From a virus (taxonomy: Duplodnaviria; Heunggongvirae; Uroviricota; Caudoviricetes): a stretch of 24,259 nt of DNA. The notes under the pieces are model-generated. The model did not search any database and was not told the DNA's origin. It saw only the letters and a program-made list of their open reading frames with translations. Location of the stretch: the IMG/VR virus record IMGVR_UViG_2671180603_000002; one strand, 5' to 3'. Positions 6,840 to 24,259 of this stretch are shown piece by piece. A program made the translations under genes and the position numbers. Every line of letters starts with the position of its first letter. Position 1 is the stretch's first letter.

Positions 6840-6848
6840 GGGATGTTT

Positions 6849-7181
6849 ATGACGAGCAAAGAAACCTTTACCCATTACCAGCCGCTGGGCAATAGTGACC
6901 CGGCTCATACCGCAACCGCGCCCGGCGGATTGAGTGCGAAAGCGCCTGCAATGACCCCGCTGATGCTGGACACCTCCACCCGTAAGCTGGTTGCGTGGGA
7001 TGGCACCACCGACGGTGCTGCCGTTGGCATTCTTGCGGTTGCTGCTGACCAGACCAGCACCACACTGACGTTCTACAAGTCCGGCACGTTCCGTTATGAG
7101 GATGTGCTCTGGCCGGAGGCTGCCAGCGACGAGACGAAAAAACGGACCGCGTTTGCCGGAACGGCAATCAGCATCGTTTAA
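6849..7181 (+). CDS. D: Head decoration protein D
   Basis: [27 protein letters not shown]...AISIV, 110 aa from the second ATG, matching lambda gpD. Confidence 0.95.
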
Positions 7182-7198
7182 CTTTACCCTTCATCACT

Positions 7199-7226
7199 AA
7201 AGGCCGCCTGTGCGGCTTTTTTTACG
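7199..7226 (+). terminator. Stem-loop plus T-run between D and E (intrinsic-terminator-like; possible attenuator or mRNA-stability element)
   Basis: AAAGGCCGC-CTGT-GCGGCTTTTTTT: a 5-bp GC stem (7203-7207 pairing with 7212-7216) extended by A/T pairs and followed by a T tract. It sits 18 nt after the D stop. Confidence 0.4.
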
Positions 7227-7236
7227 GGATTTTTTT

Positions 7237-8262: not shown

Positions 8263-8303
8263 TCATGGCCCTTCGGGGCCATTTTCTCTCTGTGGAGGAG
8301 TTC

Positions 8304-8702
8304 ATGACGAAAGATGAACTGATTGCCCGTCTTCAGGAGCTGGGTGAGCAATTGAACCGCGATGTCAGTTTGACGGGAACGAAAGAAGAACTGGCGCTTC
8401 GTGTGGCAGAGCTGGAAGAAGAGCTTGATGACACGGATGAAACTGCCGGTCAGGACACCCCTCTCAGCCGGGAAAATGTGCTGACCGGGCATGAAAATGA
8501 GGTGGTATCAGCGCAGCCGGATACCGTGATTCAGGATACGGCTGAACTGGTCACGGTCGTGGCACTGGTGACGCTGCATACTGATGCACTTCACGCCACG
8601 CGGGATAAACCTGTGGCATTTGTGCTGCCGGGAACGGCGTTTCGTGTCTCTGCCGGTGTGGCAGCCGAAATGACAGAGCGCGGCCTGGCCAGAATGCAAT
8701 AA
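8304..8702 (+). CDS. FI: DNA-packaging / head assembly protein FI
   Basis: MTKDELIARLQELGEQLNRDVSLTGTKEELALRVAELEEE...RGLARMQ, 132 aa. GGAGGAG RBS upstream of the ATG at 8304. Confidence 0.9.
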   Translation: MTKDELIARLQELGEQLNRDVSLTGTKEELALRVAELEEELDDTDETAGQDTPLSRENVLTGHENEVVSAQPDTVIQDTAELVTVVALVTLHTDALHATRDKPVAFVLPGTAFRVSAGVAAEMTERGLARMQ

Positions 8703-8713
8703 CGGGAGGCGCT

Positions 8714-9067
8714 GTGGCTGATTTCGATAACCTGTTCGATGCTGCCATTGCCCGCGCCGATGAAACGATACGCGGGTACATGGGAACGTCAGCCACCATG
8801 ACATCCGGTGAGCAGTCAGGTGCGGTGATACGTGGTGTTTTTGATGACCCTGAAAATATCAGCTATGCCGGACAGGGCGTGCGCGTTGAAGGCTCCAGCC
8901 CGTCCCTGTTTGTCCGGACTGATGAGGTGCGGCAGCTGCGGCGTGGAGACACGCTGACCATCGGTGAGGAAAATTTCTGGGTAGATCGGGTTTCGCCGGA
9001 TGATGGCGGAAGTTGTCATCTCTGGCTTGGACGGGGCGTACCGCCTGCCGTTAACCGTCGCCGCTGA
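8714..9067 (+). CDS. FII: Head-tail connector protein FII
   Basis: GTG start; MADFDNLFDAAIARADETIRGYMG...AVNRRR, 117 aa, matching lambda gpFII. Confidence 0.9.
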   Translation: MADFDNLFDAAIARADETIRGYMGTSATMTSGEQSGAVIRGVFDDPENISYAGQGVRVEGSSPSLFVRTDEVRQLRRGDTLTIGEENFWVDRVSPDDGGSCHLWLGRGVPPAVNRRR

Positions 9068-9078
9068 AAGGGGGATGT

Positions 9079-9657
9079 ATGGCCATAAAAGGTCTTGAGC
9101 AGGCCGTTGAAAACCTCAGCCGTATCAGCAAAACGGCGGTGCCCGGTGCCGCCGCAATGGCCATTAACCGCGTTGCTTCATCCGCGATATCGCAGTCTGC
9201 GTCACAGGTTGCCCGTGAGACAAAGGTACGCCGGAAACTGGTAAAGGAAAGGGCCAGGCTGAAAAGGGCCACGGTCAAAAATCCGCAGGCCAGAATCAAA
9301 GTTAACCGGGGGGATTTGCCCGTAATCAAGCTGGGTAATGCGCGGGTTGTCCTGTCCCGCCGCAGGCGTCATAAAAAGGGGCAGCGTTCATCCCTGAAAG
9401 GTGGCGGCAGCGTGCTTGTGGTGGGTAACCGTCGTATTCCCGGCGCGTTTATTCAGCAACTGAAAAACGGCCGGTGGCATGTTATGCAGCGTGTGGCCGG
9501 GAAAAACCGTTACCCCATTGATGTGGTGAAAATCCCGATGGCGGTGCCGCTGACCACGGCGTTTAAACAGAATATTGAACGGATACGGCGTGAACGTCTT
9601 CCGAAAGAGCTGGGCTATGCGCTGCAGCATCAACTGAGAATGGTAATAAAGCGATGA
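9079..9657 (+). CDS. Z: Tail completion protein Z
   Basis: 192 aa, MAIKGLEQAVENLSRISKTAVPGAAAMAINRVASS..., matching lambda gpZ. Confidence 0.92.
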   Translation: MAIKGLEQAVENLSRISKTAVPGAAAMAINRVASSAISQSASQVARETKVRRKLVKERARLKRATVKNPQARIKVNRGDLPVIKLGNARVVLSRRRRHKKGQRSSLKGGGSVLVVGNRRIPGAFIQQLKNGRWHVMQRVAGKNRYPIDVVKIPMAVPLTTAFKQNIERIRRERLPKELGYALQHQLRMVIKR

Positions 9658-10049
9658 AACATACTGAACTCCGTGCAGCCGTACTGGATGCACTGGAGAA
9701 GCATGACACCGGGGCGACGCTTTTTGATGGTCGCCCCGCTGTTTTTGATGAGGAAGATTTTCCGGCAATTGCCGTTTATCTCACCGGCGCTGAATACACG
9801 GGCGAAGAGCTGGACAGCGATACCTGGCAGGCGGAGCTGCATATTGAAGTTTTCCTGCCTGCTCAGGTGCCGGATTCAGAGCTGGATTCGTGGATGGAGT
9901 CCCGGATTTATCCGGTGATGAGCGATATCCCGGCACTGTCAGATTTGATCACCAGTATGGTGGCCAGCGGCTATGACTACCGGCGCGACGATGATGCGGG
10001 CCTGTGGAGTTCAGCCGATCTGACTTATGTCATTATCTATGAAATGTGA
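9654..10049 (+). CDS. U: Tail terminator protein U
   Basis: 131 aa, [43 protein letters not shown]..., matching lambda gpU. ATGA overlap with Z. Confidence 0.95.
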
Positions 10050-10056
10050 GGACGCT

Positions 10057-10797
10057 ATGCCTGTACCAAATCCTACAATGCCGGTGAAAGGTGCCGGGAC
10101 CACCCTGTGGGTTTATAAGGGGAGCGGTGACCCTTATGCGAACCCGCTTTCAGACGTTGACTGGTCGCGTCTGGCAAAAGTTAAAGACCTGACGCCCGGC
10201 GAACTGACCGCTGAGTCCTATGACGACAGCTATCTCGATGATGAAGATGCAGACTGGACTGCGACCGGGCAGGGGCAGAAATCTGCCGGAGATACCAGCT
10301 TCACGCTGGCGTGGATGCCCGGAGAGCAGGGGCAGCAGGCGCTGCTGGCGTGGTTTAATGAAGGTGATACCCGTGCCTATAAAATCCGCTTCCCGAACGG
10401 CACGGTCGATGTGTTCCGTGGCTGGGTCAGCAGTATCGGTAAGGCGGTGACGGCGAAGGAGGTGATTACCCGCACGGTGAAGGTCACCAATGTGGGACGT
10501 CCGTCGATGGCAGAAGATCGCAGCACGGTGACGGCGACGACCGGCATGACGGTGACACCCGCCAGTGCTTCCGTAGTGAAAGGGCAGAGCACCACGCTGA
10601 CCGTGGCATTCCAGCCGGATGGCGCAACCGACAAGAGCTTCCGTGCGGTGTCTGCGGATAAAACAAAAGCCACCGTGTCGGTCAGTGGTATGACCATCAC
10701 CGTGAAAGGTGTTGCTGCAGGCAAGGTCAACATTCCGGTCGTATCTGGTAATGGTGAGTTTGCTGCGGTTGCAGAAATCAACGTCACCGCCAGTTAA
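10057..10797 (+). CDS. V: Major tail tube protein V, with a C-terminal Ig-like domain
   Basis: [22 protein letters not shown]..., 246 aa from the ATG at 10057. The Thr/Val-rich C-terminus is lambda-gpV-like. Confidence 0.95.
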
Positions 10798-10812
10798 TCC
10801 GGAGAGTCAGCG

Positions 10813-11235
10813 ATGTTCCTGAAAACCGAATCATTTGAACATAACGGTGTGACCGTCACGCTTTCTGAACTGTCAGCCCTGCAGCGTATTGAGCATCTCG
10901 ACCTGATGAAACGGCAGGCAGAACAGGCGGAGTCAGACAGCAACCGGAAGTTTACTGTGGAAGACGCCATCAGAACCGGCGCTTTTGTGGTTGCGATGTC
11001 CCTGTGGCATAACCATCCGAAGAAGACGCAGATGCCGTCCATGAATGAAGCCGTTAAACAGATTGAGCAGGAAGTGCTTACCACCTGGCCCACAGAGGCA
11101 ATTTCTCATGCTGAAAACGTGGTGTACCGGCTGTCCGGTATGTATGAGTTTGTGGTGAATGATGCTCCTGAACAGGCAGAGGACGCCGGGCCTGCAGAGC
11201 CTGTTTCTGCGGGAAAGTGTTCGACGGTGAGCTGA
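10813..11235 (+). CDS. G: Tail assembly chaperone G
   Basis: 140 aa, MFLKTESFEHNGVTVTLSELSALQRIEHLDLMKRQ..., matching lambda gpG. Confidence 0.92.
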   Translation: MFLKTESFEHNGVTVTLSELSALQRIEHLDLMKRQAEQAESDSNRKFTVEDAIRTGAFVVAMSLWHNHPKKTQMPSMNEAVKQIEQEVLTTWPTEAISHAENVVYRLSGMYEFVVNDAPEQAEDAGPAEPVSAGKCSTVS

Positions 11236-11651
11236 GTTTTGCCCTGAAACTGGCGCGTGAGATGGGGCGACCCGACTGGCGCGCCATGCTTGCCGGGATG
11301 TCATCCACGGAGTATGCCGACTGGCACCGCTTTTACAGTACCCATTATTTTCATGATGTTCTGCTGGATATGCACTTTTCCGGGCTGACGTACACCGTGC
11401 TCAGCCTGTTTTTCAGCGATCCGGAGATGCATCCGCTGGATTTCAGTCTGCTGAACCGGCGCGAGGCTGACGAAGAGCCTGAAGATGATGTGCTGATGCA
11501 GAAAGCGGCAGGGCTTGCCGGAGGTGTCCGCTTTGGCCCGGACGGGAATGAAGTTATCCCCGCTTCCCCGGATGTGGCGGACATGACGGAGGATGACGTA
11601 ATGCTGATGACAGTATCAGAAGGGATCGCAGGAGGAGTCCGGTATGGCTGA
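10813..11651 (+). CDS. GT: Tail assembly chaperone G-T fusion, made by a programmed -1 ribosomal frameshift
   Basis: The slippery heptamer G_GGA_AAG at 11211-11217 lies near the 3' end of G. The -1 frame then stays open to 11651 and encodes the gpT-like sequence (FDGELSFALKLAREMGRPDWRAMLAGMSSTEYADWHRFY...). Confidence 0.85.
11211..11217 (+). promoter_or_regulatory. Slippery site GGGAAAG for the G to G-T -1 frameshift
   Basis: Heptamer in the X_XXY_YYZ register relative to the G frame, at the conserved position 8 codons before the G stop. Confidence 0.8.
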
Positions 11652-14205
11652 ACCGGTAGGCGATCTGGTCGTTGATTTGAGTCTGGATGCGGCCAGATTT
11701 GACGAGCAGATGGCCAGAGTCAGGCGTCATTTTTCCGGTACGGAAAGTGATGCGAAAAAAACAGCGGCAGTCGTTGAACAGTCGCTGAGCCGACAGGCGC
11801 TGGCTGCACAGAAAGCGGGGATTTCCGTCGGGCAGTATAAAGCCGCCATGCGTATGCTGCCTGCACAGTTCACCGACGTGGCCACGCAGCTTGCAGGGGG
11901 GCAGAATCCCTGGCTGATCCTGCTGCAACAGGGTGGTCAGGTTAAGGACTCCTTCGGCGGGATGATCCCCATGTTCAGGGGGCTTGCCGGCGCGATCACC
12001 CTGCCGATGGTGGGGGCCACCTCGCTGGCGGTGGCGACCGGTGCGCTGGCGTATGCCTGGTATCAGGGCAACTCAACCCTGTCCGATTTCAACAAAACGC
12101 TGGTCCTTTCCGGTAATCAGGCGGGACTGACGGCAGATCGTATGCTGGTCCTGTCCAGAGCCGGGCAGGCGGCAGGGCTGACGTTTAACCAGACCAGCGA
12201 GTCACTCAGCGCACTGGTTAAGGCGGGGGTAAGCGGTGAGGCTCAGATTGCGTCCATCAGCCAGAGTGTGGCGCGTTTCTCCTCTGCATCCGGCGTGGAG
12301 GTGGACAAGGTCGCTGAAGCCTTCGGGAAGCTGACCACAGACCCGACGTCGGGGCTGACGGCGATGGCACGCCAGTTCCATAACGTGACGGCGGAGCAGA
12401 TTGCGTATGTTGCTCAGTTGCAGCGTTCCGGCGATGAAGCCGGGGCATTGCAGGCGGCGAACGAGGCCGCAACGAAAGGGTTTGATGACCAGACCCGCCG
12501 CCTGAAAGAGAACATGGGCACGCTGGAGACCTGGGCAGACAGGACTGCACGTGCATTCAAATCCATGTGGGATGCGGTGCTGGATATTGGTCGTCCTGAT
12601 ACCGCGCAGGAGATGCTGATTAAGGCAGAGGCTGCGTTTAAGAAAGCAGACGACATCTGGAATCTGCGCAAGGATGATTATTTCGTTAACGATGAAGCAC
12701 GGGCGCGTTACTGGGATGATCGTGAAAAAAAACGCCTGGAGCGGGATGCAGCCCAAAAGAGGGTAGATCAACAGCGTCAACAGGACAAAAATGCGCAGCA
12801 GCAGAGCGATACCGAAGCGTCACGGCTGAAATATACCGAAGAGGCGCAGAAGGCTTACGAACGGCTGCAGACGCCGCTGGAGAAATATACCGCCCGTCAG
12901 GAAGAACTGAACAAGGCACTGAAAGACGGAAAAATCCTGCAGGCAGATTACAACACGCTGATGGCGGCGGCGAAAAAGGATTATGAAGCGACGCTGAAAA
13001 AGCCGAAACAGTCCGGCGTGAAGGTGTATGCGGGCGATCGTCAGGAAGACAGTGCTCATGCGGCCCTGCTGACGCTTCAGGCAGAACTCCGGACGCTGGA
13101 GAAGCATGCCGGAGCGAATGAGAAAATCAGCCAGCAGCGCCGGGATTTGTGGAAGGCAGAAAGTCAGTTCGCGGTACTGGAGGAGGCGGCACAACGTCGC
13201 CAGCTGTCCGCACAGGAGAAATCCCTGCTGGCGCATAAAGACGAGACGCTGGAGTACAAACGCCAGCTGGCTGCACTTGGTGACAAGGTTACGTATCAGG
13301 AGCACCTGAATGCGCTGGCGCAGCAGGCGGATAAATTCGCACAGCAGCAACGGGCAAAACGGGCAGCCATTGATGCGAAAAACCGGGGGCTGACTGACCG
13401 GCAGGCAGCGCGGGAAGCCACGGAACAGCGCCTGAAGGAACAGTATGGCGATAATCCTCTGGCGCTGAATAACGTCATGTCAGAGCAGAAAAAGACCTGG
13501 GCGGCTGAAGACCAGCTTCGCGGGAGCTGGATGGCAGGCCTGAAGTCCGGCTGGAGTGAGTGGGAAGAGAGCGCCACGGACAGTATGTCACAGGTTAAAA
13601 GTGCAGCCACGCAGACCTTTGATGGTATTGCACAGAATATGGCGGCGATGCTGACCGGCAGTGAACAGAACTGGCGCAGCTTCACCCGCTCCGTGCTGTC
13701 CATGATGACAGAAATTCTGCTTAAGCAGGCAATGGTGGGGATTGTCGGGAGTATCGGCAGCGCCATTGGCGGGGCTGTTGGTGGCGGCGCATCCGCGTCA
13801 GGTGGTACAGCCATTCAGGCCGCTGCGGCGAAATTCCATTTTGCAACCGGGGGATTTACGGGAACCGGCGGCAAATATGAGCCAGCGGGGATTGTTCACC
13901 GTGGTGAATTTGTCTTCACGAAGGAGGCAACCAGCCGGATTGGCGTGGGGAATCTCTACCGGCTGATGCGCGGCTATGCGGAAGGTGGTTATGTGGGCGG
14001 TGCCGGAAGTCCGGCGCAGATGCGGCGGGCTGAAGGCATTAATTTTAATCAGAACAATCACGTGGTGATTCAGAACGACGGTACGAATGGTCTGCCAGGT
14101 CCACAGATGATGAAGGCCGTGTATGACATGGCCCGCAAGGGTGCCCGTGATGAAATTCAGACACAGATGCGTGATGGTGGCCTGTTCTCCGGAGGTGGAC
14201 GATGA
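11644..14205 (+). CDS. H: Tail tape measure protein H
   Basis: 853 aa, the same length as lambda gpH. Coiled-coil-rich with a Gly-rich C-terminal segment. Start overlaps the end of T. Confidence 0.96.
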   Translation: MAEPVGDLVVDLSLDAARFDEQMARVRRHFSGTESDAKKTAAVVEQSLSRQALAAQKAGISVGQYKAAMRMLPAQFTDVATQLAGGQNPWLILLQQGGQVKDSFGGMIPMFRGLAGAITLPMVGATSLAVATGALAYAWYQGNSTLSDFNKTLVLSGNQAGLTADRMLVLSRAGQAAGLTFNQTSESLSALVKAGVSGEAQIASISQSVARFSSASGVEVDKVAEAFGKLTTDPTSGLTAMARQFHNVTAEQIAYVAQLQRSGDEAGALQAANEAATKGFDDQTRRLKENMGTLETWADRTARAFKSMWDAVLDIGRPDTAQEMLIKAEAAFKKADDIWNLRKDDYFVNDEARARYWDDREKKRLERDAAQKRVDQQRQQDKNAQQQSDTEASRLKYTEEAQKAYERLQTPLEKYTARQEELNKALKDGKILQADYNTLMAAAKKDYEATLKKPKQSGVKVYAGDRQEDSAHAALLTLQAELRTLEKHAGANEKISQQRRDLWKAESQFAVLEEAAQRRQLSAQEKSLLAHKDETLEYKRQLAALGDKVTYQEHLNALAQQADKFAQQQRAKRAAIDAKNRGLTDRQAAREATEQRLKEQYGDNPLALNNVMSEQKKTWAAEDQLRGSWMAGLKSGWSEWEESATDSMSQVKSAATQTFDGIAQNMAAMLTGSEQNWRSFTRSVLSMMTEILLKQAMVGIVGSIGSAIGGAVGGGASASGGTAIQAAAAKFHFATGGFTGTGGKYEPAGIVHRGEFVFTKEATSRIGVGNLYRLMRGYAEGGYVGGAGSPAQMRRAEGINFNQNNHVVIQNDGTNGLPGPQMMKAVYDMARKGARDEIQTQMRDGGLFSGGGR

Positions 14206-14531
14206 AAACCTTCCGCTGGAAAGTGAAACCCGGTATGGATGTGGCTTCGGCCCCTTCTGTAAGAAAGGTGCGCTTTGGTGATGGCTATTCCCAGCGAGCG
14301 CCTGCCGGGCTGAATGCCAACCTGAAAACGTACAGCGTGACGCTTTCTGTCCCCCGTGAGGAGGCCATGGTACTGGAGTCGTTTCTGGAAGAGCACGGGG
14401 GCTGGAAAGCCTTTCTGTGGACGCCGCCTTATGAGTGGCGGCAGATAAAGGTGACCTGCGCAAAATGGTCGTCGCGGGTCAGTATGCTGCGTGTTGAGTT
14501 CAGCGCAGAGTTTGAACAGGTGGTGAACTGA
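14202..14531 (+). CDS. M: Tail tip protein M
   Basis: 109 aa, MKTFRWKVKPGMDVASAPSVRKVRFGDGYSQRA..., matching lambda gpM. ATGA overlap with H. Confidence 0.95.
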   Translation: MKTFRWKVKPGMDVASAPSVRKVRFGDGYSQRAPAGLNANLKTYSVTLSVPREEAMVLESFLEEHGGWKAFLWTPPYEWRQIKVTCAKWSSRVSMLRVEFSAEFEQVVN

Positions 14532-15229
14532 TGCAGGATATCCGGCAGGAAACACTGAATGAATGCACCCGTGCGGAGCAGTCGGCCAGCGTGGTGCTCT
14601 GGGAAATCGATCTGACAGAGGTCGGTGGAGAACGTTATTTTTTCTGTAATGAGCAGAACGAAAAAGGTGAGCCGGTCACCTGGCAGGGGCGACAGTATCA
14701 GCCGTATCCCATTCAGGGGAGTGGTTTTGAACTGAATGGCAAAGGCACCAGTACGCGCCCCACGCTGATGGTTTCTAACCTGTACGGTATGGTCACCGGG
14801 ATGGCGGAAGATCTACAGAGTCTGGTCGGCGGAACGGTGGTCCGGCGTAAGGTTTACGCCCGTTTTCTGGATGCGGTGAACTTCGTCAACGGAAACAGTG
14901 ACGCCGATCCGGAGCAGGAGGTGATCAGCCGCTGGCGCATTGAGCAGTGCAGCGAACTGAGCGCGGTGAGTGCCTCTTTTGTACTGTCCACGCCGACGGA
15001 AACAGATGGCGCTGTTTTTCCGGGACGTATCATGCTGGCCAACACCTGCACCTGGACCTATCGCGGCGATGAGTGCGGTTATCACGGTCCGGCGGTCGCG
15101 GATGAATATGACCAGCCAACGTCCGACATCACGAAGGATAAATGCAGCAAATGCCTGAGTGGCTGTAAGTTTCGCAATAACGTCGGCAACTTTGGCGGCT
15201 TCCTTTCCATTAACAAACTTTCGCAGTAA
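14531..15229 (+). CDS. L: Tail tip protein L (allele 1, lambda-type), full length
   Basis: 232 aa, MQDIRQETLNECTRAEQSASVVLWEIDLTEVGGERYFFCNEQ...SINKLSQ, matching lambda gpL. Cys-rich C-terminus. Confidence 0.95.
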   Translation: MQDIRQETLNECTRAEQSASVVLWEIDLTEVGGERYFFCNEQNEKGEPVTWQGRQYQPYPIQGSGFELNGKGTSTRPTLMVSNLYGMVTGMAEDLQSLVGGTVVRRKVYARFLDAVNFVNGNSDADPEQEVISRWRIEQCSELSAVSASFVLSTPTETDGAVFPGRIMLANTCTWTYRGDECGYHGPAVADEYDQPTSDITKDKCSKCLSGCKFRNNVGNFGGFLSINKLSQ

Positions 15230-15234
15230 ATCCC

Positions 15235-15852
15235 ATGACAGAGACAGAATCAGCGATTCTGGCGCACGCCCGGCGATGTGCTCCAGCGGAGTCGTGCGGC
15301 TTCGTGGTAAGAACGCCGGAGGGGGAAAGATATTTCCCCTGCGTGAATATCTCCGGTGAGCCGGAGGCGTATTTCCGTATGTCGCCGGAAGACTGGCTGC
15401 AGGCAGAGATGCAGGGTGAGATTGTGGCACTGGTCCACAGCCACCCCGGTGGTCTGCCCTGGCTGAGTGAGGCCGACCGGCGGCTGCAGGTGCAGAGTGA
15501 TTTGCCGTGGTGGCTGGTCTGCCGGGGGGCGATTCACAAGTTCCGCTGTGTGCCACATCTTACCGGGCGGCGCTTTGAGCACGGGGTGACGGACTGTTAC
15601 ACGCTGTTCCGGGATGCTTACCATCTGGCGGGGATTGAGATGCCGGATTTTCATCGTGAGGATGACTGGTGGCGTCACGGTCAGAATCTCTATCTGGATA
15701 ATCTGGAGGCCACAGGGCTGTATCAGGTGCCGTTGTCAGCGGCGCAGCCGGGCGATGTGCTGCTGTGCTGTTTTGGTTCATCGGTGCCGAATCATGCCGC
15801 CATTTACTGCAGTGGTGCTCTGGGAAATCGATCTGACAGAGGTCGGTGGTGA
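15235..15852 (+). CDS. K: Tail tip assembly protein K (allele 1), 3'-truncated at a rearrangement junction
   Basis: MTETESAILAHARRCAPAESCGFVV... matches lambda K (full ORF form) for 192 codons, including the JAMM/MPN motif HSHPGG...SEAD, up to ...NHAAIYC. At about 15811 the sequence switches to L-homologous DNA out of frame, giving a 13-codon junk tail and a stop at 15852. Confidence 0.75.
   Translation: MTETESAILAHARRCAPAESCGFVVRTPEGERYFPCVNISGEPEAYFRMSPEDWLQAEMQGEIVALVHSHPGGLPWLSEADRRLQVQSDLPWWLVCRGAIHKFRCVPHLTGRRFEHGVTDCYTLFRDAYHLAGIEMPDFHREDDWWRHGQNLYLDNLEATGLYQVPLSAAQPGDVLLCCFGSSVPNHAAIYCSGALGNRSDRGRW
15456..15810 (+). repeat. 355-bp direct repeat of the K allele-1 mid-region (second copy at 18039..18393, offset 2583 bp) flanking the first inserted block
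   Basis: K allele-1 codons ~73-192 occur both at the 3' end of the truncated K (15235..) and at the 5' end of the K fragment (18037..). They appear identical on inspection. Confidence 0.8.
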
Positions 15853-16450
15853 ACGTTATTTTTTCTGTAATGAGCAGAACGAAAAAGGTGAGCCGGTTAC
15901 CTGGCAGGGGCGGCAGTATCAGGCATACCCCATTCAGGGGACGGGATTTGAACTGAACGGCAAGGGCAGTGCTGCCCGTCCGACACTGACGGTTTCTAAC
16001 CTGCACGGAATGGTCACCGGGATGGCGGAAGACCTGCAGAGTCTGGTCGGCGGAACGGTGGTCAGGCGTAAGGTTTACGCCCGTTTTCTGGATGCGGTGA
16101 ACTTCGTCAACGGAAACAGCGACGCCGATCCGGAACAGGAGGTGATCAGCCGCTGGCGCATCGAGCAGTGCAGCGAACTGAGCGCGGTCAGTGCCTCTTT
16201 TGTGCTGGCCACACCAACGGAGACGGATGGCGCGGTTTTCCCGGGGCGTATCATGCTGGCGAATACCTGTATGTGGACTTACCGTTCTGATGAGTGTGGT
16301 TACACGGGCAGGGCAGTGGCTGACGAGTTCGACAAACCAACGACGGATATCCGGAAGGACAAATGCAGCAAGTGTATGCGCGGGTGTGAGTTGCGCAACA
16401 ATACCGGTAATTTCGGCGGTTTCCTTTCCATCAATAAACTTTCTCAGTAA
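15812..16450 (+). pseudogene. L: L-homologous fragment (allele 2), 5'-truncated: codons ~21-232 with no native start
   Basis: VVLWEIDLTEVGGERYFFCNEQNEKGEPVTWQGRQYQAYPIQGTGFELNGKGSAARPTLTVSNLHGMV...SINKLSQ is homologous to L 21-232 but differs at several residues from the full L at 14531. The frame is open upstream to a fortuitous ATG at 15614 (ORF 15614..16450); GTG codons at 15812 and 15815 could also initiate. Confidence 0.65.
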
Positions 16451-16454
16451 ATCC

Positions 16455-17198
16455 ATGACACAGACAGAATCAGCGATTCTGGCGCACGCCCGGCGATGTG
16501 CGCCAGCGGAGTCGTGTGGCTTCGTGGTGAGAACGCCGGAGGGAGACAGGTATCTTCCCAGCGAGAATATCTCCGGTGAGCCGGAGGAACGGTTCCGGAT
16601 GGCTCCGGAGGACTGGCTGCGGGCACAAATGCAGGGTGAGATTGTGGCGCTGGTCCACAGTCATCCCGGTGGTCTGCCCTGGCTGAGTGAGGCTGACCGG
16701 CGGCTGCAGGTGCAGAGTGATTTGCCGTGGTGGCTGGTCTGCCGGGGGGCGATTCACAAGTTCCGCTGTGTGCCACATCTTACCGGGCGGCGCTTTGAGC
16801 ACGGGGTGACGGACTGTTACACGCTGTTCCGGGATGCTTATCATCTGGCAGGGATTGAGATGCCGGATTTTCATCGCGGGGATGACTGGTGGCGTAACGG
16901 TCAGAATCTCTATCTTGACAATATGGAGGTGACGGGTTTTTACCGTGTCGCACTGACAGAGGCACAGCCGGGCGATGTGCTGCTGTGCTGTTTTGGTTCA
17001 TCGGTGCCGAATCATGCCGCCATTTACTGCGGTGACGGCGGGCTGCTGCACCATATTCCTGAACAACTGAGCAAACGAGAGAGGTACACCGACAAATGGC
17101 AGCGACGCACACACTCCCTCTGGCGTCACCGGGCATGGCGCGCATCTGCCTTTACGGGGATTTACAACGATTTGGTCGCCGCATCGACCTTCGTGTGA
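16455..17198 (+). CDS. K: Tail tip assembly protein K (allele 2), full length, JAMM/MPN plus NlpC/P60-like
   Basis: 247 aa, MTQTESAILAHARRCAPAESCGFVVRTPEGDRYLPSENISGEPEERFRMAPEDWLRAQMQGEIVALVHSHPGG... ...VAASTFV. Overlaps I by 103 nt, as in lambda. Confidence 0.88.
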   Translation: MTQTESAILAHARRCAPAESCGFVVRTPEGDRYLPSENISGEPEERFRMAPEDWLRAQMQGEIVALVHSHPGGLPWLSEADRRLQVQSDLPWWLVCRGAIHKFRCVPHLTGRRFEHGVTDCYTLFRDAYHLAGIEMPDFHRGDDWWRNGQNLYLDNMEVTGFYRVALTEAQPGDVLLCCFGSSVPNHAAIYCGDGGLLHHIPEQLSKRERYTDKWQRRTHSLWRHRAWRASAFTGIYNDLVAASTFV

Positions 17199-17737
17199 AA
17201 ACGGGGGCTGAAGCCATCCGGGCACTGGCCACACAGCTCCCGGCGTTTCGTCAGAAACTGAGTGACGGCTGGTATCAGGTGCGCATTGCCGGGCGTGATG
17301 CAGGTGAAACCGAATTGTCTGCCCGTCTTAATGAGCCGCTGGCAAATGGTGCAGTGATCCACATAGTACCGCGTCTGGTGGGAGCTAAAAGTGGCGGTGT
17401 GTTTCAGGCGGTGCTGGGGGCGGCTGTTATGGCGGTTGCTATATGGATGCCGGGGGTAGGAATTATGGCGAGTAATCTGCTGTTTTCTCTCGGTGCCAGT
17501 ATGACGCTTGGCGGTGTTGCACAGATGCTGGCACCGAAAGCCAGAACTCCCCGTACACAGACAACGGATAACGGTAAGCAGAACACGTATTTCTCGTCAC
17601 TGGATAACATGGTTGCCCAGGGCAATGTTCTGCCCGTTCTGTACGGTGAAATGCGCGTGGGGTCACGTGTGGTTTCTCAGGAGATCAGCACGGCAGACGA
17701 AGGGGATGGTGGTCAGGTTGTGGTGATTGGTCGCTGA
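17096..17737 (+). CDS. I: Tail tip assembly protein I (allele 2, 213 aa)
   Basis: MAATHTLPLASPGMARICLYGDLQRFGRRIDLRVKTGAEAIRALATQLPAF... The N- and C-termini match lambda gpI; the central hydrophobic segment differs and is 10 aa shorter. Confidence 0.88.
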   Translation: MAATHTLPLASPGMARICLYGDLQRFGRRIDLRVKTGAEAIRALATQLPAFRQKLSDGWYQVRIAGRDAGETELSARLNEPLANGAVIHIVPRLVGAKSGGVFQAVLGAAVMAVAIWMPGVGIMASNLLFSLGASMTLGGVAQMLAPKARTPRTQTTDNGKQNTYFSSLDNMVAQGNVLPVLYGEMRVGSRVVSQEISTADEGDGGQVVVIGR

Positions 17738-17756
17738 TGCAAAATGTTTTATGTGA

Positions 17757-17774
17757 AACCGCCTGCGGGCGGTT
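17757..17774 (+). other. I-J intergenic hairpin AACCGCC-TGCG-GGCGGTT followed by a T-rich run; the same element recurs near 19150-19170 (degenerate) and 21553-21570
   Basis: Perfect 7-bp stem with a 4-nt loop read directly from the sequence, located between the I stop and the J start. Confidence 0.4.
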
Positions 17775-17797
17775 TTGTCGTTTATGGAGCGTGAGGA

Positions 17798-18049
17798 ATG
17801 GGTAAAGGCAGCAGTAAGGGGCATACCCCGCGCGAAGCGAAGGACAACCTGAAATCCACGCAGTTGCTGAGTGTGATTGATGCCATCAGCGAAGGGCCGG
17901 TTGACGGTCCGGTGGATGGATTAAAAAGCGTGCTGCTGAACGGTACGCCGGTCCTGGACAGCGAGGGGAAGACAAACTTTTCCGGTGTTACGGTGGTGTT
18001 CCGTGCAGGTGAGCAGGAGCAGACACCGCCGGAGGGATGCCCTGGCTGA
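17798..18049 (+). pseudogene. J: J (tail tip / host specificity) 5' fragment: 80 codons, then a junction into K sequence and a stop
   Basis: [80 protein letters not shown] matches the J N-terminus. After about 18036 the DNA is the middle of K (allele 1), and the J frame stops at 18047-18049. Confidence 0.75.
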
Positions 18050-18561
18050 GTGAGGCCGACCGGCGGCTGCAGGTGCAGAGTGATTTGCCGTGGTGGCTGG
18101 TCTGCCGGGGGGCGATTCACAAGTTCCGCTGTGTGCCACATCTTACCGGGCGGCGCTTTGAGCACGGGGTGACGGACTGTTACACGCTGTTCCGGGATGC
18201 TTACCATCTGGCGGGGATTGAGATGCCGGATTTTCATCGTGAGGATGACTGGTGGCGTCACGGTCAGAATCTCTATCTGGATAATCTGGAGGCCACAGGG
18301 CTGTATCAGGTGCCGTTGTCAGCGGCGCAGCCGGGCGATGTGCTGCTGTGCTGTTTTGGTTCATCGGTGCCGAATCATGCCGCCATTTACTGCGGTGACG
18401 GCGGGCTGCTGCACCATATTCCTGAACAACTGAGCAAACGAGAGAGGTATACCGACAAATGGCAGCGACGCACACACTCCCTCTGGCGTCACCGGGCATG
18501 GCACGCATCTGCCTTTACGGGGATTTGCAACGATTTGGCCGCCGCATCGACCTTCGTGTGA
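18037..18561 (+). CDS. K: K (allele 1) 3' fragment, codons ~73-247, starting at an ATG created at the junction
   Basis: MPWLSEADRRLQVQSDLPWWLVCRGAIHKFRCVPHLTGRRFEHGVTDCYTLFRDAYHLAGIEMPDFHREDDWWRHGQNLYLDNLEATGLYQVPLSAAQPGD...AASTFV. This is the allele-1 sequence missing from the truncated copy at 15235. It lacks the two His of the JAMM motif. Confidence 0.7.
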   Translation: MPWLSEADRRLQVQSDLPWWLVCRGAIHKFRCVPHLTGRRFEHGVTDCYTLFRDAYHLAGIEMPDFHREDDWWRHGQNLYLDNLEATGLYQVPLSAAQPGDVLLCCFGSSVPNHAAIYCGDGGLLHHIPEQLSKRERYTDKWQRRTHSLWRHRAWHASAFTGICNDLAAASTFV

Positions 18562-19130
18562 AAACGGGTGCCGAAGCCATCCGGGCGATGGCCACACAGC
18601 TCCCTGCGTTTCGTCAGAAGCTGAGCGACGGCTGGTATCAGGTGCGTATTGCCGGGCAGGATGTTAGCACGTCCGGATTAACGGCGCAGTTACATGAGGC
18701 TCTGCCTGACGGCGCTGTGATTCATATTGTTCCCAGAGTCGCCGGGGCCAAGTCAGGTGGTGTATTCCAGATTGTCCTGGGAGCAGCCGCCATTGCCGGA
18801 TCATTCTTTACCGCCGGAGCCACCCTTGCAGCATGGGGGGCTGCCATTGGTGCCGGTGGTATGACCGGCATTCTGTTTTCTCTCGGTGCCAGTATGGTGC
18901 TCGGCGGTGTGGCTCAGATGCTGGCACCGAAAGCCAGAACTCCCCGCACACAGACAACGGATAACGGTAAGCAGAACACCTATTTCTCCTCACTGGATAA
19001 CATGGTTGCCCAGGGCAATGTTATGCCTGTTCTGTATGGTGAAATGCGCGTGGGGTCACGTGTGGTATCTCAGGAGATCAGCACGGCAGACGAAGGGGAC
19101 GGTGGTCAGGTTGTGGTGATTGGTCGCTGA
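18459..19130 (+). CDS. I: Tail tip assembly protein I (allele 1, lambda-type, 223 aa)
   Basis: 223 aa, the same length as lambda gpI, with the lambda-type central segment ...DVSTSGLTAQLHEALPDGAVIHIVPRVAGAKSGGVFQIVLGAAAIAGSFFTAGATLAAWGAAIGAGGMTGILFSLGASMV... Confidence 0.88.
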   Translation: MAATHTLPLASPGMARICLYGDLQRFGRRIDLRVKTGAEAIRAMATQLPAFRQKLSDGWYQVRIAGQDVSTSGLTAQLHEALPDGAVIHIVPRVAGAKSGGVFQIVLGAAAIAGSFFTAGATLAAWGAAIGAGGMTGILFSLGASMVLGGVAQMLAPKARTPRTQTTDNGKQNTYFSSLDNMVAQGNVMPVLYGEMRVGSRVVSQEISTADEGDGGQVVVIGR

Positions 19131-19190
19131 TGCAAAATGTTTTATGTGAAATCGCCTCCGGGCGGTTTTATCGTTTATGGAGCATGACGA

Positions 19191-19848
19191 ATGGGTAAAG
19201 GCAGCAGTAAGGGGCATACCCCGCGCGAAGCGAAGGACAACCTGAAGTCCACGCAGCTGCTGAGTGTGATCGATGCCATCAGCGAAGGGCCGGTTGAAGG
19301 TCCGGTGGATGGATTAAAAAGCGTGCTGCTGAACGGTACGCCGGTCCTGGACAGCGAGGGGAAGACAAACTTTTCCGGTGTTACGGTGGTGTTCCGTGCA
19401 GGTGAGCAGGAGCAGACACCGCCGGAGGGTTTTGAATCCTCCGGCTCCGAGACGGTGCTGGGTACGGAAGTGAAATATGACACGCCGATCACCCGGACCA
19501 TCACGTCGGCAAACATCGACCGTCTGCGCCTGACCTTCGGTGTGCAGGCACTGGTGGAAACCACCTCAAAGGGTGACCGGAATCCGTCGGAAGTCCGCCT
19601 GCTGGTTCAGATACAGCGTAACGGTGGCTGGGTGACGGAAAAAGACATCACCATTAAGGGCAAAACCACATCGCAGTATCTGGCCTCGGTGGTGGTGGGT
19701 AACCTGCCGCCGCGCCCGTTTAATATCCGGATGCGCAGGATGACACCGGACAGCACCACAGACCAGCTGCAGAACAAAACGCTCTGGTCGTCGTACACCG
19801 AAATCATCGATGTGAAACAGTGCTACCCGAACACGGCGCTGGTCGGCG
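19191..19848 (+). repeat. 658-bp direct repeat of the J 5' region (second copy at 21594..22251, offset 2403 bp) flanking the second inserted block
   Basis: J codons 1-~220 are present in the chimeric ORF and again at the start of the long J copy. The two copies are near-identical with several synonymous differences (allele 1 vs allele 2). Confidence 0.8.
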
Positions 19849-20246
19849 GAACGGTGGTCAGGCGTAAGGTTTACGCCCGTTTTCTGGATGCGGTGAACTT
19901 CGTCAACGGAAACAGCGACGCCGATCCGGAACAGGAGGTGATCAGCCGCTGGCGCATCGAGCAGTGCAGCGAACTGAGCGCGGTCAGTGCCTCTTTTGTG
20001 CTGGCCACACCAACGGAGACGGATGGCGCGGTTTTCCCGGGGCGTATCATGCTGGCGAATACCTGTATGTGGACTTACCGTTCTGATGAGTGTGGTTACA
20101 CGGGCAGGGCAGTGGCTGACGAGTTCGACAAACCAACGACGGATATCCGGAAGGACAAATGCAGCAAGTGTATGCGCGGGTGTGAGTTGCGCAACAATAC
20201 CGGTAATTTCGGCGGTTTCCTTTCCATCAATAAACTTTCTCAGTAA
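19191..20246 (+). CDS. Chimeric in-frame ORF: J N-terminus (~220 codons) fused to the L (allele 2) C-terminus (codons ~108-232)
   Basis: 351-aa ORF. Residues 1-220 match J (…[15 protein letters not shown]), then continue as L (GTVVRRKVYARFLDAVNFVNGNSDADPEQ...SINKLSQ). The junction lies at a 10-bp microhomology CTGGTCGGCG (19839-19848). Confidence 0.75.
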   Translation: MGKGSSKGHTPREAKDNLKSTQLLSVIDAISEGPVEGPVDGLKSVLLNGTPVLDSEGKTNFSGVTVVFRAGEQEQTPPEGFESSGSETVLGTEVKYDTPITRTITSANIDRLRLTFGVQALVETTSKGDRNPSEVRLLVQIQRNGGWVTEKDITIKGKTTSQYLASVVVGNLPPRPFNIRMRRMTPDSTTDQLQNKTLWSSYTEIIDVKQCYPNTALVGGTVVRRKVYARFLDAVNFVNGNSDADPEQEVISRWRIEQCSELSAVSASFVLATPTETDGAVFPGRIMLANTCMWTYRSDECGYTGRAVADEFDKPTTDIRKDKCSKCMRGCELRNNTGNFGGFLSINKLSQ

Positions 20247-20250
20247 ATCC

Positions 20251-20994
20251 ATGACACAGACAGAATCAGCGATTCTGGCGCACGCCCGGCGATGTGCGCC
20301 AGCGGAGTCGTGTGGCTTCGTGGTGAGAACGCCGGAGGGAGACAGGTATCTTCCCAGCGAGAATATCTCCGGTGAGCCGGAGGAACGGTTCCGGATGGCT
20401 CCGGAGGACTGGCTGCGGGCACAAATGCAGGGTGAGATTGTGGCGCTGGTCCACAGTCATCCCGGTGGTCTGCCCTGGCTGAGTGAGGCTGACCGGCGGC
20501 TGCAGGTGCAGAGTGATTTGCCGTGGTGGCTGGTCTGCCGGGGGGCGATTCACAAGTTCCGCTGTGTGCCGCATCTCACCGGGCGGCGCTTTGAGCACGG
20601 GGTGACGGACTGTTACACGCTGTTCCGGGATGCTTATCATCTGGCAGGGATTGAGATGCCGGATTTTCATCGCGGGGATGACTGGTGGCGTAACGGTCAG
20701 AATCTCTATCTTGACAATATGGAGGTGACGGGTTTTTACCGTGTCGCACTGACAGAGGCACAGCCGGGCGATGTGCTGCTGTGCTGTTTTGGTTCATCGG
20801 TGCCGAATCATGCCGCCATTTACTGCGGTGACGGCGGGCTGCTGCACCATATTCCTGAACAACTGAGCAAACGAGAGAGGTACACCGACAAATGGCAGCG
20901 ACGCACACACTCCCTCTGGCGTCACCGGGCATGGCGCGCATCTGCCTTTACGGGGATTTACAACGATTTGGTCGCCGCATCGACCTTCGTGTGA
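20251..20994 (+). CDS. K: Tail tip assembly protein K (allele 2), second full copy
   Basis: Translation identical to the K copy at 16455..17198, 3796 bp upstream. Two synonymous nucleotide differences (20571, 20577) distinguish it from the other copy. Confidence 0.88.
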   Translation: MTQTESAILAHARRCAPAESCGFVVRTPEGDRYLPSENISGEPEERFRMAPEDWLRAQMQGEIVALVHSHPGGLPWLSEADRRLQVQSDLPWWLVCRGAIHKFRCVPHLTGRRFEHGVTDCYTLFRDAYHLAGIEMPDFHRGDDWWRNGQNLYLDNMEVTGFYRVALTEAQPGDVLLCCFGSSVPNHAAIYCGDGGLLHHIPEQLSKRERYTDKWQRRTHSLWRHRAWRASAFTGIYNDLVAASTFV

Positions 20995-21533
20995 AAACGG
21001 GGGCTGAAGCCATCCGGGCACTGGCCACACAGCTCCCGGCGTTTCGTCAGAAACTGAGTGACGGCTGGTATCAGGTGCGCATTGCCGGGCGTGATGCAGG
21101 TGAAACCGAATTGTCTGCCCGTCTTAATGAGCCGCTGGCAAATGGTGCAGTGATCCACATAGTACCGCGTCTGGTGGGAGCTAAAAGTGGCGGTGTGTTT
21201 CAGGCGGTGCTGGGGGCGGCTGTTATGGCGGTTGCTATATGGATGCCGGGGGTAGGAATTATGGCGAGTAATCTGCTGTTTTCTCTCGGTGCCAGTATGA
21301 CGCTTGGCGGTGTTGCACAGATGCTGGCACCGAAAGCCAGAACTCCCCGTACACAGACAACGGATAACGGTAAGCAGAACACGTATTTCTCGTCACTGGA
21401 TAACATGGTTGCCCAGGGCAATGTTCTGCCCGTTCTGTACGGTGAAATGCGCGTGGGGTCACGTGTGGTTTCTCAGGAGATCAGCACGGCAGACGAAGGG
21501 GATGGTGGTCAGGTTGTGGTGATTGGTCGCTGA
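20892..21533 (+). CDS. I: Tail tip assembly protein I (allele 2), second copy
   Basis: Translation identical to 17096..17737. Confidence 0.88.
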   Translation: MAATHTLPLASPGMARICLYGDLQRFGRRIDLRVKTGAEAIRALATQLPAFRQKLSDGWYQVRIAGRDAGETELSARLNEPLANGAVIHIVPRLVGAKSGGVFQAVLGAAVMAVAIWMPGVGIMASNLLFSLGASMTLGGVAQMLAPKARTPRTQTTDNGKQNTYFSSLDNMVAQGNVLPVLYGEMRVGSRVVSQEISTADEGDGGQVVVIGR

Positions 21534-21590
21534 TGCAAAATGTTTTATGTGAAACCGCCTGCGGGCGGTTTTGTCGTTTATGGAGCGTGA

Positions 21591-24259
<2,669 letters not shown>

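What the first reader, a model, noticed from the sequence alone, without database searches (positions are those of the whole stretch)
18025..18050. Breakpoint 2: J codon 80 joined to the K allele-1 mid-region, creating a new ATG start
The sequence ...CACCGCCGGAGGG-ATGCCCTGGCTGAGTGAGG goes from J (parent ...CCGGAGGGTTTTGAATCC) to K (parent ...CCGGTGGTCTGCCCTGG). The AT at the join is templated by neither parent as seen here. It creates an ATG that starts a 174-codon ORF encoding the K C-terminal NlpC/P60-like region without the JAMM His residues. The J frame stops four codons later.
Basis: seen in the sequence. Interest (0 to 1): 0.6.

Follow-up and report, generated by a model that had tools for sequence, protein, structure and literature searches.

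The report
False scaffold join in prophage genes
The J-to-K junction and its new ATG are in the deposited sequence, but they are almost certainly a false join made when a short-read draft of Shigella sonnei was scaffolded and gap-filled across two similar prophages, so this is an assembly artefact and not a new gene.

Summary
At 18036/18038, J (codon 80) runs into the middle of K. An ATG at 18037-18039 opens a 174-codon ORF that keeps only the NlpC/P60 half of K.

The biology is not supported. The window is the whole of contig CXDK01000078.1, from a Shigella sonnei draft assembly. It interleaves four pieces of two prophages that lie apart, each in normal L-K-I-J order, in every related genome examined: P1 piece | A | P2 piece | A | P1 piece | 10-nt overlap | P2 piece. 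The P1 pieces overlap by 356 identical bases. The P2 pieces overlap by 1994 bases and differ at two sites, where one piece carries P1 bases.

Neither the DNA junction nor its ORFs occur in any other record searched. Three sister S. sonnei drafts show the same backward, overlapping joins in the same genes, and there each join is a single N. The window has a lone A in that place at both 15811 and 18037. The third join is exactly 10 nt, GapFiller's default minimum merge overlap, and a match that short is expected by chance here.

Only the A is unaccounted for, because the T of the ATG comes from K's CTG codon.

Verdict: assembly artefact, confidence about 0.93, interest low.

The parts
14531..15810 (+). 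Segment S1: prophage P1 gene L (14531-15229) and K nt 1-576 (15235-15810). It continues the P1 head and tail genes from window 1644.
   Evidence: Window 1644-15809 matches L005 1-14166 with 1 mismatch. Every P1/P2-discriminating column carries the P1 allele except the last base, 15810, which is C: K2 has C there and P1 relatives have T.
15811..15811 (.). Join 1: a single orphan A between K nt 576 (P1) and L nt 61 (P2).
   Evidence: It matches neither K (G) nor L1 (C) nor L2 (G). It occupies the position that a single N occupies in sister assemblies.
15812..18036 (+). Segment S2: prophage-remnant P2 L nt 61 to end, K2 (16455-17198), I2 (17096-17737), J nt 1-239 (17798-18036).
   Evidence: 99.87% identical to the P2 loci L013/L016/L021. 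All alleles are P2 except 16775 and 16781, which carry the P1 bases.
18037..18037 (.). Join 2, the finding: a single orphan A between J nt 239 (P2) and K nt 221 (P1). It is the first base of the new ATG.
   Evidence: It lies on a J1(A)/J2(T) polymorphic column, but only 13 nt after a P2-specific base.
18038..19848 (+). Segment S3: P1 K nt 221 to end, I1 (18459-19130), J nt 1-658 (19191-19848). From 19335 onward J carries P2 alleles.
   Evidence: 18038-18393 is identical to 15455-15810, 356/356. It is identical to L005 up to 19334 except at 18393 and 18404, which carry K2 bases. After that, all discriminating sites are P2 type.
19839..19848 (.). Join 3: a 10-nt overlap, CTGGTCGGCG, shared by J nt 649-658 and L2 nt 292-301.
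   Evidence: It equals GapFiller's default minimum merge overlap, n = 10 (PMC3446322). There are 14 such non-homologous shared stretches of 10 nt or more between the two paths, so the match is at chance level.
19839..24259 (+). Segment S4: P2 L nt 292 to end, K2 (20251-20994), I2 (20892-21533), J (21594 to the contig end), with P1-type patches and a 2-nt deletion at 23991.
   Evidence: 99.64% identical to P2 loci. 19839-21832 matches 16043-18036 with 2 mismatches in 1994. P1 patches lie at 22142-22196, 22811-22880 and 23932-23960.
17798..18049 (+). 83-aa ORF: J residues 1-80 plus CPG, read across join 2.
   Evidence: By exact-protein look-up it is found only on this contig. It has no Pfam hit.
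18037..18561 (+). 174-aa ORF: M followed by K residues 75-247. NlpC/P60 domain only.
   Evidence: The GGAGG motif ends 1 nt before the ATG, which is read directly from the sequence.

Best explanation
The junction is a false join made during assembly finishing. It is not a rearrangement in the bacterium.

The isolate (Shigella sonnei, draft GCA_001252175.1) carries two lambda-like tail modules: a full prophage (P1) and an IS-flanked remnant (P2). Their L, K, I and J genes are about 89-97% identical, with many identical stretches of 36-240 nt.

Proposed sequence of events:
1. Read pairs falling in the shared stretches linked P1 contigs to P2 contigs.
2. A greedy scaffolder and gap closer then extended each contig end along its own prophage, past its neighbour's end.
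3. The two versions were too different to be merged, so both were kept. This produced the order P1 (to K nt 576) | P2 (L nt 61 to J nt 239) | P1 (K nt 221 to J nt 658) | P2 (L nt 292 onward).
4. Two joins were left as a one-base gap that now reads A (15811, 18037). The third was closed on a chance 10-nt overlap.

The ATG at 18037 is that placeholder base plus the TG of K's CTG codon, so the 174-codon NlpC/P60 ORF and the 83-codon J stub are by-products.

What is shown:
- The contig's identity.
- The uniqueness of the joins.
- Both parents are normal in related genomes.
- The allele map of the four pieces.
- Sister assemblies have single-N joins of the same kind.

What is inferred:
- The software responsible.
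- How an N became an A.
For: 1. The window equals the whole of contig CXDK01000078.1 (24,259 bp) of GCA_001252175.1. NCBI names its proteins as Shigella sonnei.

2. The junction is unique to this contig.
- None of 5,426 complete E. coli genomes holds it contiguously. The one record listed as covering 99% of the query is two pieces spread over 843 bp.
- In both the E. coli and phage collections, multi-kb queries spanning the joins (5 kb and 10 kb) collapse onto about 2.65 kb and about 5 kb of normal L-K-I-J.
- The exact 34-mer is absent from genome contigs and viral contigs.
- The 83-aa and 351-aa junction ORFs occur on this contig only.

3. Both parents exist elsewhere in normal order.
- The identical 853-aa H protein is indexed in 482 blocks of the collection. 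All 24 contigs read show H-M-L(232)-K(247)-I-J. L005 differs from window 1644-15809 by one base and shares a 19-nt deletion in gene C.
- The identical K2 protein is indexed in 2,145 blocks. All places shown read M-L-K-I-J-lom.

4. The four pieces reassemble into those two loci.
- The two P1 pieces overlap by 356/356 identical bases.
- The two P2 pieces overlap by 1994 bases with 2 differences, at which one copy carries the P1 bases.
- In the allele map of 518 discriminating columns, each piece is pure P1 or pure P2 apart from small swapped patches. Three sites are swapped reciprocally between S3 and S4. All internal switches lie in identical intervals of 36-80 nt.

5. Three of the six piece ends fall exactly on P1/P2 polymorphic columns (15810, 15811, 18037). 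Local densities of such columns are 0.07-0.11.

6. Sister S. sonnei drafts show the same backward, overlapping joins in the same genes, each marked by a single N.
- The assemblies are CXEU01000085.1, CXAQ01000042.1 and FUBE01000216.1.
- Nine joins are single N and one more is a 17-N gap.
- In the mapped FUBE and CXAQ joins the flanking segments map to overlapping ranges of one locus. One CXEU join follows J nt 659, one base from the end of S3.

7. Page et al. 2016 describe the Velvet, SSPACE and GapFiller pipeline. They state that these greedy tools can make false joins. Their supplement lists S. sonnei assemblies with prefixes CWW, CWZ, CXA, CXF and CXG, which bracket CXDK (PMC5320598).

8. 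GapFiller closes a gap on an overlap of at least 10 nt by default and extends with 30-mers (PMC3446322). Join 3 is exactly 10 nt. 14 equally long non-homologous matches exist between the two paths.
Against: - No raw reads were examined, so absence of the junction from reads is inferred, not shown.
- CXDK01 itself is not in the stored part of the pipeline paper's accession table, because the file was cut. Attribution to that pipeline rests on the accession range and on sister assemblies.
- I cannot explain mechanistically how a one-N gap became A. GapFiller as published needs a 10-nt overlap to close a gap. The sister assemblies kept their Ns.
- The A at 18037 coincides with the P1 J allele, and the C at 15810 with the K2 allele. 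These could be read as templated bases.
- A 10-nt microhomology at join 3 is also what real RecA-independent illegitimate recombination leaves.
- The exact-protein look-ups cannot see a junction on fragmentary contigs, so their silence is weak evidence.
Confidence: 0.93

Rival explanations
1. A real complex rearrangement in this isolate. Replication template switching (FoSTeS/MMBIR-like) or serial illegitimate recombination between the two prophages interleaved their tail modules. It left blunt or 1-nt-insertion joins at 15811 and 18037 and a 10-nt microhomology join at 19839-19848, and it created a stand-alone NlpC/P60 ORF.
For: The joins are clean and carry no Ns. Join 3 has 10-nt microhomology. 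One-base insertions are known at real non-homologous joins (general knowledge). The duplicated pieces are nearly identical, as expected for a recent event. Other odd J fusions exist in public data, one of them also found in an independent Logan assembly (P0071).
Against: - The structure is unique to one draft contig within a very clonal species.
- A genome containing a 1994-nt near-perfect repeat and a 356-nt perfect repeat could not be threaded into one contig by short reads without heuristics. This is inference from how de Bruijn assemblers behave.
- The only differences between the copies are bases of the other prophage, and three sites are swapped reciprocally.
- Piece ends sit on inter-prophage polymorphic columns.
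- Sister assemblies show the same kind of join as single-N scaffold gaps.
- The 10-nt match is at chance level.
Confidence: 0.04
2. Simple homologous exchange or an allelic variant. Under this reading, a K or J allele in this genome already reads GGG ATG CCC, so the ATG is inherited and there is no breakpoint.
For: J and K both contain CCGG-GG just before the join (CCGGAGGG in J, CCGGTGGT in K), which gives a superficial similarity.
Against: All K copies in the window, and the K genes of outside relatives of both prophages, read GGTCTGCCC. All J copies read GGAGGG(T/A)TTTGAATCC. Sequence identity to J stops at 18036, and identity to K starts at 18038. Apart from that short motif, J and K are not homologous at this point.
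Confidence: 0.01
3. A chimeric DNA molecule or a mixed template. In this scenario library or PCR chimeras, or a mixed culture of two S. sonnei variants, supplied real reads across the joins, even though no single chromosome carries them.
For: Chimeric inserts often join at short or zero homology. The allele mixing within pieces could reflect mixed templates.
Against: Three ordered joins that alternate strictly between the same two loci are not expected from rare random chimeras, which assemblers discard at low depth. Both prophages are present in every related single genome, so no mixture is needed. Sister assemblies with N joins point to scaffolding.
Confidence: 0.02

Closest known systems
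False joins and duplicated flanks from greedy scaffolding and gap closing (SSPACE + GapFiller in the Sanger Velvet-based pipeline; Page et al. 2016, PMC5320598; Boetzer & Pirovano 2012, PMC3446322)
   Same: It is a short-read draft contig. The joins connect non-homologous positions of two repeat copies. The flanks overlap in content. One join equals the 10-nt default merge overlap. Allele switches occur only across identical stretches longer than the 29-nt extension overlap. Sister assemblies carry single-N joins in the same genes.
   Different: Two joins read A instead of N, which the published algorithm does not explain. The accession CXDK01 is not itself in the part of the pipeline's accession table that I could read.
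Phage lambda tail-tip genes L, K, I, J; gpK is a JAB/MPN plus NlpC/P60 two-domain protein
   Same: Every piece is an ordinary lambda-type L, K, I or J sequence. Intact K2 (247 aa) has Prok-JAB and NLPC_P60. The 174-aa ORF is K residues 75-247.
   Different: The gene order L-K | L-K-I-J' | K'-I-J' | L'-K-I-J is not found in any phage or genome record searched. The 174-aa ORF lacks the JAB domain.
Microhomology-mediated illegitimate recombination or template switching between prophages (FoSTeS/MMBIR type)
   Same: The joins run backward, duplicate sequence and alternate between two templates. One join has 10-nt microhomology.
   Different: The joins at 15811 and 18037 have no microhomology. The junctions are unsupported outside one draft contig. 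The microhomology is at chance level. The same pattern appears in sister assemblies with N placeholders.

Membership tests
Scaffolding / gap-closure misassembly | The sequence comes from a short-read draft assembly that was scaffolded and gap-filled. | tested here: inconclusive
   The window is the whole of contig 78 in an ENA-submitted S. sonnei WGS set. Prefixes CXA*, CXF* and CXG* on either side of CXDK are S. sonnei assemblies of the Sanger Velvet/SSPACE/GapFiller pipeline. CXDK itself is not in the stored part of the table.
Scaffolding / gap-closure misassembly | The junction is absent from independent assemblies and complete genomes of the same clone, which show the parental arrangement. 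| tested here: met
   Searches show uniqueness. Searches show normal P1 and P2 loci, including L005, which has 1 mismatch in 14,166 nt and shares the 19-nt deletion.
Scaffolding / gap-closure misassembly | The pieces on either side overlap in content and collapse onto single parental loci. | tested here: met
   S1/S3 overlap is 356/356. S2/S4 overlap is 1992/1994, with the two differences being P1 bases. Allele map.
Scaffolding / gap-closure misassembly | The join carries a tool signature: a placeholder base or N, or a merge at the minimum allowed overlap. | tested here: met
   There is a single orphan A at both 15811 and 18037. Sister assemblies have single Ns at equivalent joins. Join 3 is 10 nt, the GapFiller default n.
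Scaffolding / gap-closure misassembly | No raw reads or read pairs span the join. | not testable with these tools
Real microhomology-mediated rearrangement (illegitimate recombination / MMBIR) | Microhomology of a few to about 15 nt, or a templated insertion, at the junction. | tested here: not met
   At 18037 there is no shared base between the J end and the K start. One orphan A lies between them. This feature is met only at join 3, and there it is at chance level.
Real microhomology-mediated rearrangement (illegitimate recombination / MMBIR) | The junction is reproducible in independent data from the same strain or its descendants. | tested here: not met
   It is a singleton in all collections searched. 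Reads were not testable.
Lambda gpK-type tail tip protein (JAB/MPN + NlpC/P60) | An N-terminal JAB/MPN domain with the HxH motif. | tested here: not met
   The 174-aa ORF has no Prok-JAB hit. Intact K2 and the K1 N-terminal piece do.
Lambda gpK-type tail tip protein (JAB/MPN + NlpC/P60) | A C-terminal NlpC/P60 domain. | tested here: met
   PF00877, E 7.8e-13, residues 38-151, full profile length.

The most novel reading that the evidence does not exclude
This S. sonnei isolate really carries a multi-step template-switch rearrangement. The event interleaved the tail modules of two resident prophages and, at 18037, created a new start codon for a stand-alone NlpC/P60 peptidase cut free from its JAB domain.
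Probability: 0.03. Interest if true: 0.35.

Novelty: not a real feature. Interest (0 to 1): 0.05.

Why it matters
For biology, very little. There is no evidence of a new gene, a new recombination mechanism or a domain-shuffled tail protein.

Its use is as a data-quality warning:
- A block of publicly deposited S. sonnei draft assemblies contains zig-zag concatenations of prophage tail genes.
- These produce singleton fusion proteins in protein databases. Examples are J-L, J-H and truncated K, annotated for instance as 'host specificity protein' and 'phage tail tape measure protein'.
- In this contig the scaffold gaps are no longer visible as Ns, so the false joins look like true sequence.
- Pangenome studies, prophage typing and searches for domain fusions that use these records will pick them up as novelties.

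Tried and rejected
- **Junction in other records.** I searched complete E. coli genomes, phage records, species-representative genomes and viral contigs. Nothing was found.
- **Exact-protein look-ups.** The junction ORFs occur only on this contig.
- **Literature search for the accession.** No hits. The pipeline paper's accession table is truncated in the held copy and does not show CXDK.
- **A parental K allele with ATG.** Rejected, because all K copies read CTG.
- **The orphan A at 15811 as part of the L2 parent.** The closest E. coli L2 relative has G there, the true P2 locus has G and L1 has C. Rejected.
- **A fixed k-1 overhang at every piece end, to infer the assembler's k.** Only S1's 66-nt run into the K1/K2 shared stretch fitted. 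The other ends (38, 131, 19, 55 and 7 nt) did not, so I dropped this idea.
- **The S3 J allele (P1 start, P2 rest) as a real lineage allele.** I considered this because P0009 (128 members) was listed at 100% identity. The alignment shows P0009 is plain J2 with D36, so there is no support.
- **A recurrent J-L recombination hot spot.** P0002 and P0071 have different junctions. Rejected.
- **De Bruijn graph misassembly.** This is unlikely for the joins themselves, because they share 10 nt or less. It could still explain the swapped allele patches.

Full report
**1. What the sequence shows**

Around the finding the window reads ...GACACCGCCGGAGGG-A-TGCCCTGGCTGAGTGAGG....
- Up to 18036 it is the 5' end of a lambda-type J gene, identical to the other two J copies in the window.
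- From 18038 it is the middle of a K gene, identical over 356/356 bases to the K that starts at 15235.
- The J reading frame (17798-18049, 83 aa) ends three codons after the join.
- An ATG at 18037-18039 opens a 174-codon ORF (18037-18561).
- Pfam finds only NLPC_P60 in that ORF. Intact K (247 aa) has Prok-JAB plus NLPC_P60.

One detail is not. The T of the ATG is the T of K's CTG codon and is present in every K copy, so only the A at 18037 is orphan.

**2. The join is one of three**

A k-mer diagonal analysis and parent-by-parent alignments split 14531-24259 into four pieces.
- S1 is 14531-15810: L and K nt 1-576.
- S2 is 15812-18036: L nt 61 through K, I and J nt 239.
- S3 is 18038-19848: K nt 221 through I and J nt 658.
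- S4 is 19839-24259: L nt 292 through K, I and J to the contig end.

The joins are a lone A (15811), a lone A (18037) and a 10-nt overlap, CTGGTCGGCG (19839-19848). Each join runs backward along the gene order, so tail genes appear two or three times.

**3. Where the window comes from**

Exact-protein look-up of the junction ORFs returns a single record. That record is CXDK01000078.1 of GCA_001252175.1, whose length of 24,259 bp equals the window. NCBI names its proteins as Shigella sonnei. The window is therefore one entire contig of a draft assembly.

**4. The junction is unique**
- No complete E. coli genome (5,426 searched) holds the J/K junction contiguously.
- Phage records and E. coli genomes fold 10-kb and 5-kb queries spanning the joins onto about 5 kb and about 2.65 kb of ordinary L-K-I-J.
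- The 34-nt junction string is absent from the species-representative genomes and from viral contigs.
- The 351-aa J-L fusion made by join 3 is a one-member, one-contig cluster among 5.8 billion proteins.

**5. Both parents exist, separately and in normal order, in relatives**

P1, the full prophage:
- The window's 853-aa tape-measure protein is indexed, identical, in 482 blocks of the collection.
- All 24 contigs read show H-M-L(232)-K(247)-I-J(about 1165).
- L005 matches window 1644-15809 with a single mismatch.
- L005 also shares a 19-nt deletion in head gene C that other relatives lack. It is therefore a very close lineage, and its tail genes are in normal order.

P2, the remnant:
- The window's K2 protein is indexed, identical, in 2,145 blocks.
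- It always lies in an IS-flanked remnant, M-L-K-I-J(1159)-lom, on 4.8-4.9 Mb chromosomes.
- S2 and S4 are 99.87% and 99.64% identical to that remnant.

**6. The allele map**

I aligned the four pieces to P1 (L005) and P2 (L013) and scored 518 discriminating columns.
- S1 is pure P1 up to 15809.
- S2 is pure P2 except at 16775 and 16781, which carry P1 bases.
- S3 is P1 up to 19334 except at 18393 and 18404, which carry P2 bases. It then carries P2 alleles through J nt 658.
- S4 is P2 with three P1 patches.
- At three homologous sites, S3 carries the P2 bases and S4 the P1 bases, a reciprocal swap.
- All internal switches lie in stretches of 36-80 nt that are identical between the prophages.

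S1 and S3 overlap by 356 identical bases and together rebuild a normal P1 K-I-J. S2 and S4 overlap by 1994 bases with 2 differences and rebuild a normal P2 L-K-I-J. The contig is therefore two ordinary loci cut into overlapping pieces and dealt out alternately.

**7. The ends of the pieces**

Base 15810 falls on a K1(T)/K2(C) column and carries the K2 base. Base 15811 falls on an L1(C)/L2(G) column and matches neither. Base 18037 falls on a J1(A)/J2(T) column and carries the J1 base.

Local densities of such columns are 0.07-0.11. Three exact hits would have a joint chance of roughly 6e-4 if specified in advance. Allowing any three of the six ends, the chance is about 0.01. This is my own arithmetic from the densities.

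A biological break between non-homologous genes has no reason to respect polymorphisms between two prophages. An extension algorithm that stalls at ambiguous bases does.

One caution applies. A P2-specific base lies only 13 nt before 18037. The A therefore cannot be a legitimate read-supported switch to P1, and it may simply be a placeholder, as at 15811, where A fits no parent.

**8. Sister assemblies**

A homology search with the J-L fusion turned up other backward J or L fusions in S. sonnei drafts. Their contigs carry the same kind of repetition.
- CXEU01000085.1 has three M-L-K-I repeats and two J genes.
- CXAQ01000042.1 and FUBE01000216.1 show similar repeats.
- In all three contigs the joins are single Ns: nine of them, plus one 17-N gap.
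- In the joins mapped (five single-N joins in FUBE and CXAQ), the flanking segments abut exactly at the N. All but one pair map to overlapping ranges of one locus. In FUBE these ranges are P1 13951-15230, 13266-15755, 14606-16148 and 14855-17490.
- One CXEU join follows J nt 659 (...ggcactggtcggcgt N), one base from where S3 ends in the window.

These are explicit scaffold gaps. The window has a lone A in the equivalent position, twice.

**9. The likely tool chain**

Page et al. 2016 (PMC5320598) describe the Sanger pipeline as Velvet, then SSPACE, then 120 iterations of GapFiller. They state that these greedy algorithms can lead to false joins. Their accession table lists S. sonnei assemblies under CWW*, CWZ*, CXA*, CXF* and CXG*. 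CXDK, CXEU and CXAQ fall in that range, but the held copy of the table is truncated and does not show CXDK itself.

The GapFiller paper (PMC3446322) gives three relevant rules:
- Extension proceeds one base at a time using 30-mers, which means a 29-nt overlap.
- Ambiguous bases are settled by majority vote.
- A gap is closed when the two extensions overlap by at least n, with a default of 10 nt.

Join 3 is exactly 10 nt. Between the two 1.8-2.3 kb paths there are 14 non-homologous shared stretches of 10 nt or more, against about 4 expected at random, so such a match was bound to be met.

**10. Most likely mechanism**

This part is inference.
- Read pairs in shared stretches linked P1 and P2 contigs.
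- Each contig end was then extended along its own prophage.
- The two versions are about 89% identical across L-K, so they could not be merged and slid past one another. This left both versions in the scaffold, separated by a minimal gap.
- Two minimal gaps now read A, and one was closed on a chance 10-mer.
- Within shared stretches, k-mer extension hopped between prophages and produced the swapped allele patches.

I cannot explain why the gap base is A rather than N. This is the main loose end.

**11. Rivals**
- A real template-switch or illegitimate-recombination event is not excluded without reads. It would need three independent coincidences: uniqueness in a clonal species, ends on inter-prophage polymorphisms, and the same pattern with N placeholders in sister assemblies. 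It would also need a short-read assembler to thread a 2-kb near-perfect repeat. I give it 0.04.
- Inheritance of the ATG from a parental allele was tested and is not met.
- Library chimeras or a mixed culture are unnecessary and fit the ordered alternation poorly.

**12. Verdict**

The feature is an assembly artefact (confidence 0.93), and the 174-codon NlpC/P60 ORF and the 83-codon J stub are by-products. Its practical value is as a warning about singleton fusion proteins from these draft assemblies. Interest is 0.05.

Noticed in passing
window 5814 (gene C, ORFs 5404-5832 and 5829-6839): There is a 19-nt deletion relative to other S. sonnei copies of this prophage (L006, L008). It splits the head protease/scaffold gene C. 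The same deletion is in the independent assembly L005 (GCA_013655695.1), so it looks like a real lineage marker and suggests the prophage is defective.
   Followed up: partly
window 23932-24020: The last J copy has a P1-type allele patch at 23932-23960. It then has a 2-nt deletion at 23991, exactly on a P1(C)/P2(T) polymorphic site where the alleles return to P2 type. This frameshifts J, so the ORF ends at 24020 (808 aa instead of about 1159). It is probably another merge error near the contig end.
   Followed up: partly
window 16775, 16781, 18393, 18404, 19739-19793, 22142-22196, 22811-22880: Small patches carry the bases of the other prophage, and three sites are swapped reciprocally between S3 and S4. 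Every switch lies in identical intervals of 36-80 nt. This fits k-mer extension hopping between repeat copies, although real gene conversion cannot be excluded for each patch.
   Followed up: yes
L022 (CXEU01000085.1) 6695, 10660, 17731; L024 (CXAQ01000042.1) 7186, 8645, 10519; L025 (FUBE01000216.1) 1400-1416, 2697, 5188, 6732: Other deposited S. sonnei drafts contain multi-copy zig-zag concatenations of lambda tail genes joined by single Ns. These give singleton fusion proteins, for example a J N-terminus fused to the tape-measure C-terminus and annotated as 'phage tail tape measure protein'.
   Followed up: yes
L016 / L017 (CP019689.1, 4625994-4648154): One complete S. sonnei chromosome carries the IS-flanked P2 remnant (M-L-K-I-J-lom) twice, about 9.4 kb apart. 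P2 copy number may therefore vary between strains.
   Followed up: no
P0002 (RWZD01000682.1, L023 31-1029) and P0071: These are other J/L fusion proteins from unrelated assemblies, and their junctions differ from the window's. P0071 (L N-terminus joined to J) is also present in an independent Logan assembly, so it may be a real deletion-type fusion.
   Followed up: partly
window 19670: Base A in the S3 J copy matches neither P1 (C) nor P2 (T). It is either a private substitution or an error.
   Followed up: no
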